Of a stretch of DNA of 64,000 nucleotides, positions 2,370-46,362 are shown piece by piece. Where the stretch lies: the IMG/VR virus record IMGVR_UViG_3300044658_000058, positions 64,001 through 128,000 of that record; one strand, written 5' to 3'. The stretch is from a virus. Under the pieces are notes generated by a model that was not told where the DNA came from, made no database searches, and saw only the letters and a program-made list of their open reading frames with translations. The position numbers and the translations under genes are program-made. Numbering within the stretch: position 1 is the stretch's first letter; each line of letters begins with the position of its first letter.

Positions 2370-2400
2370 TTGACAAACGAATAAAACTCTTTTATAAATA
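2370..2400 (+). promoter_or_regulatory. Composite early (TTGACA-17-TATAAA) and T4 late (TATAAATA) promoter for the tmRNA
   Basis: TTGACA 2370-2375; TATAAATA 2393-2400. Confidence 0.8.
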
Positions 2401-2404
2401 TACA

Positions 2405-2697
2405 TGAAACTGTTCGACGCCAAAGAGGATGACTGCAACACGGCGGTTCAAATCCGCCCACCTCCACCAAAACTCTCGACTCCACTTTATTTAGTCGAAA
2501 TATGGGGGTGACTTGGGATCGACTGCGGTAGGAATTTGAGGTTTAGGTTTCCGGCATTGTACCGCCGTTACCGGGCTAAACAAAGTAAGAGACAACGATA
2601 ACTTCGTTCCTCTGGCTGTCGCTGCCTAATCAGCAGTAAGCCAATGAGTTTTGGCGGTTGAACTTGGAAACAGAATCAACCGTCGCTTCCATTTTTC
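2405..2697 (+). ncRNA. ssrA: Circularly permuted (two-piece) tmRNA
   Basis: Acceptor piece first: T-arm GGCGG-TTCAAAT-CCGCC, then CACCTCC-A-CCA ending at 2469. Coding piece starts GGGGGTG at 2504, giving a G3:U70 Ala identity pair. Tag frame 2591-2629 reads DNDNFVPLAVAA*. Outer ends approximate. Confidence 0.93.
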
Positions 2698-2720
2698 AGG
2701 GAACAATTTGAGTAGAATAT

Positions 2721-43711: not shown

Positions 43712-44209
43712 ATGACGAAATTTCTATTACCAGAAGAAGACGCTAAGAAGCGTCGAAAGGCAAAAAAGAAGTCGAAACTTCCGCAACCGAAGTATTTTGT
43801 GGCCGAAAATCCGCAAAAATACATGGGCGACCCTAATTGTATTATCGCCCGTTCAAATCTGGAAAGAAAATTTTACAAAATTTTTGATTCCAACCCGGCA
43901 ATTCTCAAATGGGGTTGTGAAGAGATGTTCATTCGTTACAAATCATCTATCGACGGAAGTATTCATCGTTACTTTCCGGATGCAGTTATCAAAATCAAGA
44001 CACGTTCTGGCAAAACAATCGTGTGTATGATTGAAATCAAGCCAAAAAAACAGTGTTTTCCGCCAAAAAACACTAAATCCAAGCGTTTTTTGAACGAACA
44101 AATAACTTATCAGACGAATCAGGACAAATGGAAAGCAGCCAAAGACTTTTGTAAAGCCAATGGCATGGTCTTTCACGTACTAACCGAAGAGCATGTAGGA
44201 GGGTTTTAG
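43712..44209 (+). CDS. 4: Head completion nuclease (gp4)
   Basis: NPQKYMGD, RSNLE, HRYFPD, IEIKP, N..KWKAA. Confidence 0.92.
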   Translation: MTKFLLPEEDAKKRRKAKKKSKLPQPKYFVAENPQKYMGDPNCIIARSNLERKFYKIFDSNPAILKWGCEEMFIRYKSSIDGSIHRYFPDAVIKIKTRSGKTIVCMIEIKPKKQCFPPKNTKSKRFLNEQITYQTNQDKWKAAKDFCKANGMVFHVLTEEHVGGF

Positions 44210-45141: not shown

Positions 45142-45431
45142 TTGTAGTATCTCTCCGCAAATTCTTTGGCCGTTTGAACCCAATAGGGAGTAGCCATACC
45201 GAGTGTAGCGGAAAGGATATTTCCGAGAATTTCCACCTTCCCGTCAACGACCATCGTATCACGCTTTGAGACACGATGTGTTCTTGCCAGTTTTAAGAAG
45301 GTTTGGTGGGTCGTCATCATTTTGACCCAGACGACCGCTTGCGTCTTGTCAAATTTCCAACCTCCCGGCGCTGGAAATTCTTTAGCGCCGCCCGCCGTCG
45401 AAATTACTACCTTCTGTTCGCTCATAAACAA
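45138..45431 (-). CDS. Hypothetical protein
   Basis: In operon. Confidence 0.6.
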   Translation of the reverse strand: MFMSEQKVVISTAGGAKEFPAPGGWKFDKTQAVVWVKMMTTHQTFLKLARTHRVSKRDTMVVDGKVEILGNILSATLGMATPYWVQTAKEFAERYYK

Positions 45432-45966
45432 TCAATCCCGATTCCACATGCTTTCCATCAATCTGGAACGTATCATAGGGGAGAGGATGAAAGTTGTCAA
45501 TATATTTGTTAATATTTTCAGAATCTTTACGCACCAGTGCGACAAGCTTGCCGCCCGGTTTCAAAAATCTGATTGCATGATCAACGTGAGGGATTGAATT
45601 TTTTGGCGGGCACATTAGAACGGCATCGAACTTCCGTGCGTAAGTCACGTTTGGATTGAGTGTGAGAAAATCGTGATTGAGACAACGAAAACCCTTGGAC
45701 TCAAGATACGAGGCGGCTTTCTTGTTCAATTCAACGCACTCTACATGAGCGCCTAATAATCTGGCAATTTTAGCCAGATTGCCATAACCGGCAGATGGTT
45801 CTAAAACACGGGAACCATCTTGAACACCAGCAAGATTGGCCATTTCAATAGCCAAGAACATAGGTGTTTCTTTTGCAGGAAGATTGGTCCGAGTGGACCG
45901 ATTCGAACAGCCGACCCCTAAGTTTTCATCTGGGCTTTCATCCGGTTTGGTTTCTGTAGCGAACAT
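45382..45966 (-). CDS. Small methyltransferase-like protein (start 45966 or 45861)
   Basis: VLEPSAGYG, VELN, DFL, FDAVLMCPP (NPPF motif altered). Confidence 0.75.
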   Translation of the reverse strand: MFATETKPDESPDENLGVGCSNRSTRTNLPAKETPMFLAIEMANLAGVQDGSRVLEPSAGYGNLAKIARLLGAHVECVELNKKAASYLESKGFRCLNHDFLTLNPNVTYARKFDAVLMCPPKNSIPHVDHAIRFLKPGGKLVALVRKDSENINKYIDNFHPLPYDTFQIDGKHVESGLIVYERTEGSNFDGGRR

Positions 45967-46106
45967 ATTACCCTATCGGAATCCCTGTAGATTTCATTCG
46001 TCATTGTCGCTCTGTTCGTACCAGCCGTCGCCAGTCATCCCTTCGCTATCGTCCGAACTAATTTCTCCTACCAGCCTTAGTGCTCTACCAACTGAGCTAC
46101 ACTCGG
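45885..46106 (-). tRNA. Interrupted tRNA, probably Phe(GAA), with a ~147-nt insert in the anticodon loop
   Basis: 5' half CCGAGTG-TA-GCTC-AGTTGGTA-GAGC-A-CTAAG (46106-46076); 3' half TGAAAA-CTTAG-GGGTC-GGCTG-TTCGAAT-CGGTC-CACTCGG-A-CCA (45928-45885). Confidence 0.8.
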
Positions 46107-46114
46107 ATAACCTC

Positions 46115-46143
46115 TAGATATGTGAACCCCATTTCGATGTCAA
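46115..46143 (-). promoter_or_regulatory. sigma70-type promoter of the split tRNA
   Basis: TTGACA-17-TATCTA, 8 nt before tRNA position 1. Confidence 0.65.
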
Positions 46144-46171
46144 TGGACGATTTTTACTTTTTTTGTAGTTA

Positions 46172-46362
46172 TCGTCTTCTCGTAGCGGTCTGTGAGAATT
46201 TTCAAAAACTGTCTAAGCTCTACATCGCTGCAAGCAAGGGTGAGAGTGGTAAACCCGTCCTTACAGGACGGAATGTACACTTCCCAAAGAGTGTGCATGG
46301 AACGTCCCTTCGTTGGCCGGATGACAAGCTTCTATACGAAGCATTGTCTTGCTACAAGGCGA
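46172..46362 (+). ncRNA. Candidate ~190-nt multibranch ncRNA
   Basis: Closing stem plus at least 3 internal hairpins; G-U wobbles favour the plus strand. Confidence 0.5.

What the first reader, a model, noticed from the sequence alone, without database searches (positions are those of the whole stretch)
45885..46143. tRNA split at the anticodon loop by a ~147-nt insert, with its 3' half read in frame inside a methyltransferase ORF
Seen: both halves are intact and complementary (acceptor CCGAGTG/CACTCGG, anticodon stem CTAAG/CTTAG, TTCGAAT, ACCA) under a dedicated promoter. The insert (45929-46075) is too short for a typical group I intron and lacks its motifs. It contains a gene-end-like frame (..GDGWYEQSDNDE*) and the ATG at 45966, which reads through the tRNA 3' half into the methyltransferase. 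Insert ends can pair (CTGG/CCAG) and each end motif is duplicated internally (GGCTGGTA, GATGAAA). Inference: either an unusual protein-spliced intron, a tRNA-shaped mRNA leader whose processing controls the gene, a decoy for anticodon nucleases, or a recombination scar.
Basis: partly seen in the sequence, partly recalled or inferred. Interest (0 to 1): 0.78.

Follow-up and report, generated by a model that had tools for sequence, protein, structure and literature searches.

The report
Interrupted phage tRNA-Phe overlapping a methyltransferase gene
A phage gene for a phenylalanine tRNA is split by a 146-base folded insert of no known intron type, a methyltransferase gene starts inside that insert, and the same unannotated arrangement occurs in cultured Caulobacter, Brevundimonas and Rhizobium phages, where it can be tested.

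Summary
On the minus strand (46106..45885) lies a complete tRNA-Phe(GAA) cloverleaf, interrupted between nt 31 and 32 by a 146-nt insert.

It is not a one-off or an assembly artefact. Fifteen related copies carry an insert of 114-200 nt at the same site. These come from uncultured soil phages and from cultured Caulobacter phages CcrColossus and CcrPW, Brevundimonas phage Bajun and Rhizobium phage RHph_Y1_11. All stems show compensatory changes (100% of cells paired, 16 of 25 pairs covary). A 4-6 bp helix closes every insert, and the inserts themselves are structured.

No group I, ribozyme or bulge-helix-bulge signature was found. The gene never sits in the phages' tRNA clusters and always lies beside one small amino-methyltransferase. 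In this phage that ORF starts in the insert (ATG 45966) and is read through the tRNA 3' half; codon-position statistics support translation.

Position 33 is U in only 8 of 15 copies.

My leading reading (about 0.45) is an undescribed intron class, removed by cleavage and ligation. The main rival (about 0.35) is an unspliced tRNA-like RNA that works with or regulates the methyltransferase.

The scan met this family before on other DNA (e1-5343997).

The parts
46138..46143 (-). -35 box TTGACA of the promoter; it overlaps the stop codon of the upstream small ORF
   Evidence: Read. TTGACA followed after 16-17 nt by TAT.. recurs upstream of the relatives' copies.
46115..46120 (-). weak -10 box TATCTA, 8 nt before tRNA nt 1
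   Evidence: It fails the consensus scan, so the promoter is inferred from the conserved arrangement only.
46076..46106 (-). tRNA-Phe 5' part, nt 1-31: acceptor 5' strand, D arm and anticodon-stem 5' strand
   Evidence: ARAGORN -i; covariation with the 3' part.
45930..46075 (-). 146-nt structured insert (class A)
   Evidence: The class A consensus has several helices with compensatory changes. No Rfam family matches.
46071..46074 (-). closing helix, 5' strand CUGG, preceded by a 1-nt spacer G (46075)
   Evidence: It pairs with CCAG at 45933..45930. Across the family the pair is CUGG/CCAG, CCGG/CCGG, CCGU/ACGG or CGGA/UCCG.
45930..45933 (-). closing helix, 3' strand CCAG, directly before A32
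45885..45929 (-). tRNA-Phe 3' part, nt 32-76: 7-nt loop AUGAAAA, anticodon-stem 3' strand, variable loop, T arm, acceptor 3' strand and ACCA. It also forms codons 13-27 of the methyltransferase ORF.
45382..45966 (-). methyltransferase ORF (194 aa), from the ATG inside the insert, through the tRNA 3' part, to the stop
   Evidence: There is no in-frame start between TAG 45975..45973 and the tRNA 3' end. A coding signature is present downstream of the tRNA. The fold is an amino-methyltransferase core.
45973..45996 (-). two in-frame stops (TGA 45996..45994 and TAG 45975..45973) that separate the frame through the 5' half from the methyltransferase frame
   Evidence: In Rhizobium phage RHph_Y1_11 the equivalent frame is uninterrupted and is annotated as one CDS.
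46143..46298 (-). conserved upstream small ORF (52 aa) that keeps synteny with the module
   Evidence: 60% identity to the L006 homologue.

Best explanation
This is a genuine, selected gene of a previously unannotated family found in phages of Alphaproteobacteria. It is a tRNA-Phe(GAA) whose anticodon arm is interrupted between nt 31 and 32 by a structured insert of 114-200 nt, and it always sits next to one small amino-methyltransferase gene.

SHOWN
- The two halves co-evolve to keep a full cloverleaf.
- A 4-6 bp helix closes the insert directly before an intact 7-nt loop, A-N-G-A-A-R-N.
- The insert is not a group I or group II intron, not a bulge-helix-bulge intron, and matches no Rfam family.
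- In this phage the methyltransferase ORF begins in the insert and is translated through the tRNA 3' half.

INFERRED (my leading reading)
- The insert is an intron of an undescribed class.
- The primary transcript starts at or just before tRNA nt 1.
- Some molecules are translated as methyltransferase mRNA.
- Others fold into the tRNA shape and are cut on both strands of the asymmetric junction: after G31, and after the last G of the closing helix.
- They are then resealed by an RNA ligase (phage RtcB or Rnl-type, or a host enzyme), giving a 76-nt tRNA-Phe.
- The cutting activity is unknown. It could be a protein or the insert itself.
For: (1) Conservation. Fifteen copies carry the insert at the same site: the window, L006, L012, L013, L014, L015, L016, L018, L019, L025, CcrColossus x2, Bajun x2 and RHph_Y1_11.

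(2) Covariation. 100% of cells are paired, 16 of 25 pairs change on both sides, and 0 of 500 shuffles reach this. Between CcrColossus and CcrPW, an acceptor change A>C is matched by T>G on the other strand.

(3) All canonical tRNA features are kept over a methyltransferase divergence down to about 35% identity:
- stems of 7, 4, 5 and 5 bp
- the GG D loop and the TTCRAAY T loop
- a 5-nt variable loop
- A73 and an encoded CCA
- a loop of 7 nt in 14 of 15 copies (Bajun copy 1 is degenerate), with GAA invariant and a purine at position 37
Such completeness is expected of an RNA that must pass as a real tRNA.

(4) The 5' spacer varies from 0 to 2 nt. Insert length and sequence also vary while the junction architecture stays constant. 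This is intron-like behaviour.

(5) In CcrColossus versus CcrPW, the copy-2 exons show 0 substitutions in 77 nt while its insert differs by 22%, with compensatory blocks.

(6) The complete genomes G001 and CcrColossus have no other tRNA-Phe among their 23 and 28 tRNAs.

(7) RNA ligases are phage-encoded in 4 of 5 complete carrier genomes: RtcB plus PF09414 in CcrColossus, RtcB in Bajun, and PF09414 in G001 and G002.

(8) Translation through the 3' half. In the 15 codons after the tRNA, variable sites by codon position are 7, 4 and 13. pN/pS is 0.26 in the methyltransferase frame against 0.85 and 3.83 in the other two frames. The ATG at 45861 is not conserved: its codon is AAG in L012, GAG in L014 and CCA in L016. 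There is no in-frame start inside the tRNA 3' half.

(9) Precedent. Unclassified 'enigmatic' introns in phage tRNAs have been reported (PMC6784885, read).
Against: - Position 33 is U in only 8 of 15 copies (C in 4, A in 3), and position 32 is A in 13 of 15 by a fixed-offset parse that displaces two copies. Among the ordinary tRNAs of the same phages, position 33 is U in 45 of 48 and position 32 is almost always a pyrimidine. A decoding tRNA should keep U33.
- No cutting enzyme or ribozyme was identified. There is no EndA homologue in G000-G002 and no Rfam ribozyme.
- RHph_Y1_11 encodes neither RtcB nor a PF09414 ligase.
- Splicing would destroy the methyltransferase mRNA in the 9 copies where the ORF overlaps.
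- The gene lies away from the tRNA clusters and always beside the methyltransferase. This suggests a dedicated RNA-protein module rather than an ordinary tRNA gene.
- G002 also has an intact tRNA-Phe.
- The inserts are themselves under structural selection. In CcrColossus versus CcrPW, insert 1 differs by only 3%.
- No RNA data were available.
Confidence: 0.45

Rival explanations
1. The RNA works unspliced, as a tRNA-like RNA in a module with the methyltransferase. It keeps the tRNA-Phe body and the PheRS-type identity nucleotides, but its anticodon arm carries a functional structured domain. It would serve as substrate, partner or scaffold, or cis/trans regulator of the adjacent small methyltransferase, which has no target-recognition domain. 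In this phage it would also act as the structured 5' part of the methyltransferase mRNA, where folding or processing competes with translation.
For: - N33 is free and A32 is unusual, whereas G34-A36, A73, U20 and G44 are kept. This pattern fits recognition by a synthetase or other tRNA-binding protein, but not ribosomal decoding.
- Linkage to the methyltransferase is strict in all 15 copies, across Caulobacter, Brevundimonas and Rhizobium phages and soil phages, and the gene is never in a tRNA cluster.
- The ORF overlaps the RNA in three different ways.
- The inserts have covariation-supported helices and motifs shared across deep divergence, such as GACGAUA and a GGCGACGG-type hairpin.
- CcrColossus insert 1 is 97% conserved against CcrPW, while synonymous sites differ by 20-30%.
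- The methyltransferase fold is closest to the tRNA m2G methyltransferases TrmN and Trm11 and to M.TaqI, and it lacks THUMP and TRD domains.
Against: - Known tRNA-derived functional RNAs (tmRNA, YrlA, viral tRNA-like structures) have lost canonical tRNA features. This one keeps all of them, including a 5-bp anticodon stem and, in 14 of 15 copies, a 7-nt loop.
- The insert classes differ greatly in sequence and length (114-200 nt), which is odd for a conserved functional domain.
- CcrColossus copy 2 has invariant exons and a fast-evolving insert.
- In L025 a terminator and a new promoter separate the RNA from the methyltransferase, so cis regulation cannot be general.
Confidence: 0.35
2. The RNA is a decoy or sponge for a host tRNA-targeting defence: an uncleavable tRNA-Phe look-alike that titrates an anticodon nuclease or another tRNA-directed effector.
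For: - The invariant GAA is displayed in a 7-nt bulge on an intact tRNA body.
- These phages carry other tRNAs with unusual loops, for example C33 in the tRNA-Glu and tRNA-Val of G002.
- Literature shows that phage tRNAs can counter tRNA-targeting defences (PMC10264068 and PMC11555353, seen as listings and not read in full).
Against: - I know of no defence system that targets tRNA-Phe, and none was seen nearby.
- The reading does not explain the strict methyltransferase linkage.
- It does not explain why positions 33 and 38 vary; such nucleases usually read those positions.
Confidence: 0.07
3. The gene is a decaying relic: a tRNA-Phe gene inactivated by an insertion, kept only because the methyltransferase ORF or its promoter now depends on the sequence.
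For: - Bajun copy 1 is degenerate, with an A31·C39 mismatch and an 8-nt or A33 loop.
- The ORF overlap imposes a coding constraint on the 3' half.
Against: - Compensatory changes occur in every stem, including the 5' half, which is not coding in most members.
- The fold is kept in L018, L025 and CcrColossus, where no ORF overlaps it.
- The CcrColossus copy-2 exons are invariant, while neighbouring synonymous sites differ by 20-30%.
Confidence: 0.03

Closest known systems
Group I introns in bacterial tRNA anticodon loops (cyanobacterial tRNA-Leu(UAA), Azoarcus tRNA-Ile, Agrobacterium tRNA-Arg; from my own knowledge, and reviewed in PMC3984707, which appeared)
   Same: A bacterial-type tRNA gene is interrupted in the anticodon-loop region by a structured RNA of about 100-250 nt. 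The last insert nucleotide is G.
   Different: There is no match to the Rfam group I model in seven inserts. The 5' exon ends in G31, not U. The insertion is at the stem/loop border, with the whole 7-nt loop left on the 3' side. Most inserts (114-173 nt) are shorter than the smallest natural group I intron I know of (Azoarcus, 205 nt).
'Enigmatic' introns of Lak megaphage tRNAs (Devoto et al. 2019, PMC6784885)
   Same: These are phage tRNA genes with conserved inserts that fit no Rfam class and have no known splicing route.
   Different: They occur in a different phage lineage (Prevotella megaphages), in different tRNAs and at different insert positions. Some Lak inserts are themselves tRNA-shaped. 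No methyltransferase linkage or ORF overlap was reported there.
Archaeal and eukaryal tRNA introns spliced by EndA/Sen endonuclease and RtcB (bulge-helix-bulge)
   Same: The insert would be removed by proteins and defined by local structure at the exon-intron junction. RtcB is encoded by two carrier phages.
   Different: The junction is a helix next to an asymmetric 0-2 nt / 7-nt internal loop, not two 3-nt bulges flanking a 4-bp helix. No EndA homologue was found. The hosts are bacterial, as shown by sigma-70-type promoters, an intrinsic terminator in L025 and an alpha-type tmRNA.
tRNA-like functional RNAs (tmRNA, the tRNA-like domain of YrlA Y RNAs, plant-virus tRNA-like structures) and the engineered 'tRNA scaffold' in which a foreign RNA replaces the anticodon loop
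   Same: A tRNA body carries an extra RNA domain on the anticodon arm. The RNA is stable and tRNA-shaped, and it may partner with a protein.
   Different: Here every canonical tRNA element is kept, including the D stem, the anticodon stem and a 7-nt loop. Position 3-70 is G-C, so there is no Ala identity. No conserved tag ORF is present. Only a sub-threshold YrlA hit was found (25 bits against a gathering score of 69), and it lies across the junction of the two CcrColossus copies. G000-G002 have no Ro60 gene.
tRNA-mimicking mRNA operators (E. coli thrS leader; own knowledge)
   Same: A tRNA-like fold sits in the 5' part of an mRNA and could be bound by a tRNA-recognising protein to control translation.
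   Different: The thrS operator mimics only an anticodon arm and lies in the untranslated leader. Here a complete tRNA is present, and its 3' half is itself translated.

Membership tests
Group I intron | Match to the group I covariance model (Rfam RF00028: conserved P3-P8 core) | tested here: not met
   No hit at E<=10 in permissive scans of the window, L006, L025, CcrColossus (2 copies), Bajun (2 copies) and RHph_Y1_11.
Group I intron | 5' exon ends in U, which pairs with G of the internal guide; the intron ends in G | tested here: not met
   The last exon nucleotide is G31 in 14 of 15 copies. The terminal G is present in 14 of 15, but it is also the closing base pair of the helix.
Bulge-helix-bulge (archaeal-type) tRNA intron | Two 3-nt bulges on opposite strands, separated by a 4-bp helix, each containing a splice site | tested here: not met
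   Both junctions lie on the same side of the closing helix, with 0-2 nt on the 5' strand and 7 nt on the 3' strand. Beyond the helix there is at most 1 bp of a possible h' helix (sequence reading).
Bulge-helix-bulge (archaeal-type) tRNA intron | EndA-family splicing endonuclease available | tested here: not met
   PF01974 is absent from G000, G001 and G002, while the archaeal control genomes score. The cultured phages and the hosts were not tested.
Canonical elongator tRNA-Phe | Cloverleaf with co-varying stems, GAA anticodon, A73 and CCA | tested here: met
Canonical elongator tRNA-Phe | Invariant U33 and a contiguous anticodon loop | tested here: not met
   U33 is present in 8 of 15 copies, against 45 of 48 in the other tRNAs of the same phages. 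The gene is not contiguous and is missed by default ARAGORN and by Rfam RF00005.
tmRNA-like RNA | G3·U70 alanine identity and a conserved internal tag reading frame | tested here: not met
   Pair 3-70 is G-C in all 8 sequences. The acidic frame is not kept in frame or in sequence among relatives, and its conserved core is a hairpin with a compensatory change in L013.
YrlA / Y RNA | Rfam RF02553 match and an adjacent Ro60 (TROVE) gene | tested here: not met
   The only hit is 25.3 bits (gathering score 69), across the junction of the two CcrColossus copies. TROVE is absent from G000-G002. In CcrColossus it lies 133 kb away, beside a different tRNA-like array.
Unclassified phage tRNA introns (Lak-type 'enigmatic' introns) | A conserved insert in the anticodon region of a phage tRNA with no Rfam class; removal from the RNA shown | tested here: inconclusive
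   The first half is met. Removal has not been shown for either family, and no RNA runs were available.
Amino (N6-A / N2-G) class I SAM methyltransferase (the neighbouring gene) | Rossmann fold with motif I (E/D)xGxG and motif IV (N/D)PP(Y/F/W) | tested here: inconclusive
   The fold is confident (pLDDT 93) and is closest to TrmN, M.TaqI, PH1948 and Trm11. Motif I, LEPSAGxG, is invariant. Motif IV reads CPPK here, and NPPR or NPPI in the cultured-phage homologues, so the aromatic residue is missing. The substrate (DNA or RNA) is undetermined.

The most novel reading that the evidence does not exclude
The insert is a new class of small catalytic or ligase-dependent intron (114-200 nt) in viruses of bacteria. 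It would cleave itself, or be cleaved, precisely at a helix/asymmetric-loop junction of the anticodon arm, and the ends would be resealed by phage RtcB or Rnl. The unspliced precursor would double as the mRNA of a methyltransferase, so that one transcript partitions between 'tRNA' and 'mRNA' fates. A variant of this reading: the tRNA-shaped RNA is the RNA subunit that gives the domain-less methyltransferase its target specificity.
Probability: 0.15. Interest if true: 0.95.

Novelty: new variant of a known kind. Interest (0 to 1): 0.8.

Why it matters
- Bacteria and their viruses are thought to splice tRNAs only through self-splicing group I introns. This family has strong comparative support (15 copies, full covariation) for a tRNA interrupted by something else.
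- The family is present, unannotated, in cultured phages of the model bacterium Caulobacter crescentus (CcrColossus, CcrPW), of Brevundimonas and of Rhizobium. The question 'how do phages handle non-group-I tRNA inserts?' therefore becomes directly testable at the bench.
- It is a clear natural case of dual coding. One stretch of RNA is selected both as a tRNA 3' half and as codons of a protein.
- It links a widespread small phage methyltransferase of unknown substrate to a specific RNA.
- For annotation, standard tRNA finders miss these genes, and gene callers extend or truncate the methyltransferase inconsistently.

Tried and rejected
- **Group I and all other Rfam families:** permissive scans of seven inserts gave nothing relevant.
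- **Bulge-helix-bulge, K-turn, sarcin-ricin, hammerhead and HDV-like motifs:** I tried to fit these by hand at the junction. None fitted consistently across members.
- **Pairing of the GAA loop with a UUC in the insert:** UUC is present in classes A and B but absent from L018 and L025, so this was dropped.
- **tmRNA-like acidic tag ORF:** rejected (see the membership test).
- **Alternative-pairing 'switch'** using the internal copy of the 5' junction motif: it is not conserved. The internal copy in L012 breaks a pair without compensation.
- **RNA evidence:** no RNA holder was listed for this DNA.
- **Search for further members:**
  - The metagenome protein-pattern search found no relative.
  - The DNA-pattern scans of metagenomes, viral contigs and species-representative genomes added only L103 and L025. 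No copy was found in bacterial genomes.
  - blastn of the window locus against cultured phages found nothing. The cultured relatives were reached only through the more conserved 3' half of L006 and through the methyltransferase protein.
- **EndA:** not found in G000-G002.
- **Pfam on the methyltransferase:** nothing above threshold.
Full report
**What is there**

The window is part of a 153-kb IMG/VR phage record that is about 85% complete. It has about 45% G+C and carries an alpha-proteobacterial-type permuted tmRNA.

The feature lies on the minus strand at 46106..45885.
- The 5' part has a 7-nt acceptor strand, a canonical D arm and a 5-nt anticodon-stem strand (nt 1-31).
- 146 nt of other sequence follow.
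- The 3' part has a 7-nt loop AUGAAAA, the complementary stem strand, a 5-nt variable loop, a T arm with TTCGAAT, the complementary acceptor strand and ACCA.

ARAGORN with introns allowed reports tRNA-Phe(gaa), 76 nt, with an intron of 146 nt between positions 31 and 32. Default ARAGORN and Rfam see nothing.

A perfect -35 box (TTGACA) lies 17 nt upstream of a weak -10 (TATCTA), which lies 8 nt before nt 1. The same arrangement recurs in relatives, although the -10 fails a consensus scan.

**It is conserved, not a one-off**

I followed the downstream methyltransferase into public collections and scanned with DNA patterns. This gave ten further loci from soil and rhizosphere phages, every one with an interrupted tRNA-Phe at the same position. 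Insert lengths are 114, 122, 123, 139, 145, 171, 171, 172 and 173 nt.

I tested this and it holds.
- Caulobacter phages CcrColossus and CcrPW carry two tandem copies, with inserts of 200 and 172 nt.
- Brevundimonas phage Bajun carries two copies.
- Rhizobium phage RHph_Y1_11 carries one copy, with a 152-nt insert.
- All are unannotated, and all lie directly upstream of or overlapping a homologue of the same methyltransferase.
- The original CcrColossus paper lists 28 tRNAs and does not mention these genes. It calls gp358 a possible rRNA methyltransferase of unknown function (PMC3556154).

**The tRNA fold is under selection**

On an alignment of eight full-length members, the cloverleaf plus closing helix is 100% paired over 196 cells. 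Sixteen of 25 pairs have changes on both sides. No shuffle out of 500 reaches this, and sliding the partners by 1 to 3 columns collapses the pairing to 25-46%.

The helix that closes the insert co-varies: CUGG/CCAG, CCGG/CCGG, CCGU/ACGG, CGGA/UCCG, and up to 6 bp in Bajun and CcrColossus.

Between CcrColossus and CcrPW an acceptor-stem change is compensated on the other strand. The copy-2 exons are identical over 77 nt, while neighbouring third codon positions differ by 20-30%.

**The inserts**

They fall into at least two sequence classes.
- Class A comprises the window, L013, L014 and L016.
- Class B comprises L006, L012, L015 and L019.
- L018, L025 and the cultured-phage copies are further forms.

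Within each class RNAalifold finds several helices with compensatory changes. Short motifs recur across classes, such as GACGAUA and a GGCGACGG-type hairpin.

Constant features of the junction:
- G31
- a spacer of 0-2 nt
- the closing helix
- a GAA-containing purine stretch just before the 3' strand of the helix
- the loop A-N-G-A-A-R-N

Permissive Rfam scans of seven different inserts give no group I intron and no self-cleaving ribozyme. The junction is not a bulge-helix-bulge.

In CcrColossus versus CcrPW, insert 1 differs by 3%. Insert 2 differs by 22%, but with blocks of compensatory substitutions.

**The overlapping methyltransferase**

The ORF 45966..45382 starts at the only possible start codon, because a TAG lies two codons upstream. 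It runs through the tRNA 3' part.

Three observations show this is not an accident of annotation.
- The 15 codons between the tRNA 3' end and a conserved Met vary at codon positions 1, 2 and 3 in 7, 4 and 13 sites. pN/pS is 0.26 in this frame against 0.85 and 3.83 in the other two frames.
- The ATG at 45861, which a gene caller would choose, is replaced by AAG, GAG or CCA in L012, L014 and L016.
- The tRNA 3' half contains no in-frame start.

The stretch includes the 'TP' motif, where PHROG methyltransferase profiles begin to match.

The overlap is derived.
- In L018, CcrColossus and Bajun the enzyme has its own Shine-Dalgarno sequence and ATG after the CCA.
- In L025 a terminator and a promoter lie between the RNA and the methyltransferase.
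- In RHph_Y1_11 the annotated CDS starts 10 nt upstream of the tRNA and reads through all of it.
- In the window the same frame is open from just before the tRNA. It is broken only by TGA and TAG in the insert.

The protein is a 159-aa amino-methyltransferase core (pLDDT 93). Its closest solved structures are TrmN, M.TaqI, PH1948 and Trm11, and it lacks THUMP and target-recognition domains. Motif IV reads CPPK here and NPPR or NPPI in the cultured phages.

**Arguments for and against splicing**

For splicing:
- Every canonical tRNA feature is retained over deep divergence, including a 5-bp anticodon stem, a loop of 7 nt in 14 of 15 copies (Bajun copy 1 is degenerate), GAA, a purine at 37, A73 and CCA.
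- The 5' spacer and the insert size are flexible.
- G001 and CcrColossus have no other tRNA-Phe.
- RNA ligases are phage-encoded in four of five complete carrier genomes.
- Unclassified phage tRNA introns have been reported.

Against splicing:
- Position 33 is U in only 8 of 15 copies and position 32 is A in 13 of 15, the latter from a parse that displaces two copies. In the other tRNAs of the same phages, position 33 is U in 45 of 48.
- No endonuclease or ribozyme was found.
- The gene is never in the tRNA clusters and is always beside the methyltransferase.
- Splicing would destroy the overlapping mRNA.
- G002 also has an intact tRNA-Phe.

I put 'undescribed intron, cut and religated' at about 0.45. 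I put 'unspliced tRNA-like RNA that works with or regulates the methyltransferase' at about 0.35. The remainder goes to a decoy role or a relic. No RNA-seq runs hold this DNA, so the choice needs a bench test, and that test is now possible with the cultured phages.

**Host and context**

Three things point to an alphaproteobacterial host: the alpha-type tmRNA, the sigma-70-type promoters, and the relatives in Caulobacter, Brevundimonas and Rhizobium phages. No copy was found in species-representative bacterial genomes.

Noticed in passing
window 2376-2720 (+): The phage encodes an alpha-proteobacterial-type permuted (two-piece) tmRNA with tag DNDNFVPLAVAA (ARAGORN; Rfam RF04321 at 102 bits and RF01849 at 83 bits).
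   Followed up: no
window 46143-46298 (-): A 52-aa ORF is 60% identical to its syntenic homologue in L006. Its stop codon overlaps the -35 box of the tRNA promoter. Another first-stage note read this region (46172-46362) as a plus-strand ncRNA with 'no credible ORF'; the conserved minus-strand ORF argues against that.
   Followed up: partly
L173 = CcrColossus JX100810.1 108500-109600 (-): An array of about five repeated tRNA-like units (shared GGGTGGCGTAG..TACTTCG and TTGTTCCCCC blocks, T arms, weak RF00005 hits) lies directly beside a Ro60/TROVE gene (107635-108432). These are probably YrlA-type Y RNAs, and they appear to be unannotated.
   Followed up: partly
L010:216-416 and L011:3474-3656: Two unrelated low-GC viral contigs were fetched only because they encode distant homologues (30-38% identity) of the methyltransferase. 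Each also has a well-formed interrupted tRNA within about 700 nt: Arg(gcg) with a 125-nt insert, and Ile(gat) with a 106-nt insert containing a T-arm-like GGTTCGAAACC. The L010 insert shares ..ACGATAGGAAG.. and ..GACGACGG.. motifs with the family. The methyltransferase/interrupted-tRNA link may be broader than tRNA-Phe.
   Followed up: partly
L002:3170-3193 and L003:6523-6546: In the tRNA clusters of two other large phages, a tRNA 5' half identical over 24 nt (D arm plus CTAAG) is followed by about 100 nt of other sequence and a T arm whose acceptor strand matches the preceding tRNA's end. This is an odd, unresolved tRNA arrangement.
   Followed up: no
L038 (G002:C1:82500-95000): The complete relative G002 has an intact but divergent tRNA-Phe (loop TTGAAGA). 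Its tRNA-Glu and tRNA-Val have C33, so non-U33 loops are not confined to the interrupted gene in this phage group.
   Followed up: no
window 43712-44209 (+): This is a TnsA-like endonuclease N-terminal domain protein (PF08722, E=1.7e-18; PHROGs call it 'head closure'). It is kept in synteny about 2 kb from the module in L014, L015 and L016.
   Followed up: no
window 45382-45861 (-) and homologues: Motif IV of the methyltransferase is CPPK or CPPR in the soil-phage clade, and NPPR or NPPI in CcrColossus, Bajun and RHph_Y1_11. The usual aromatic fourth residue is absent throughout.
   Followed up: partly
L169:2497-2611 (CcrColossus): A sub-threshold Rfam YrlA hit (25 bits, E=0.08) spans the 3' half of copy 1, the 12-nt spacer and the 5' half of copy 2. 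The two acceptor strands are not complementary, so this probably reflects only the permuted-tRNA topology of YrlA.
   Followed up: no
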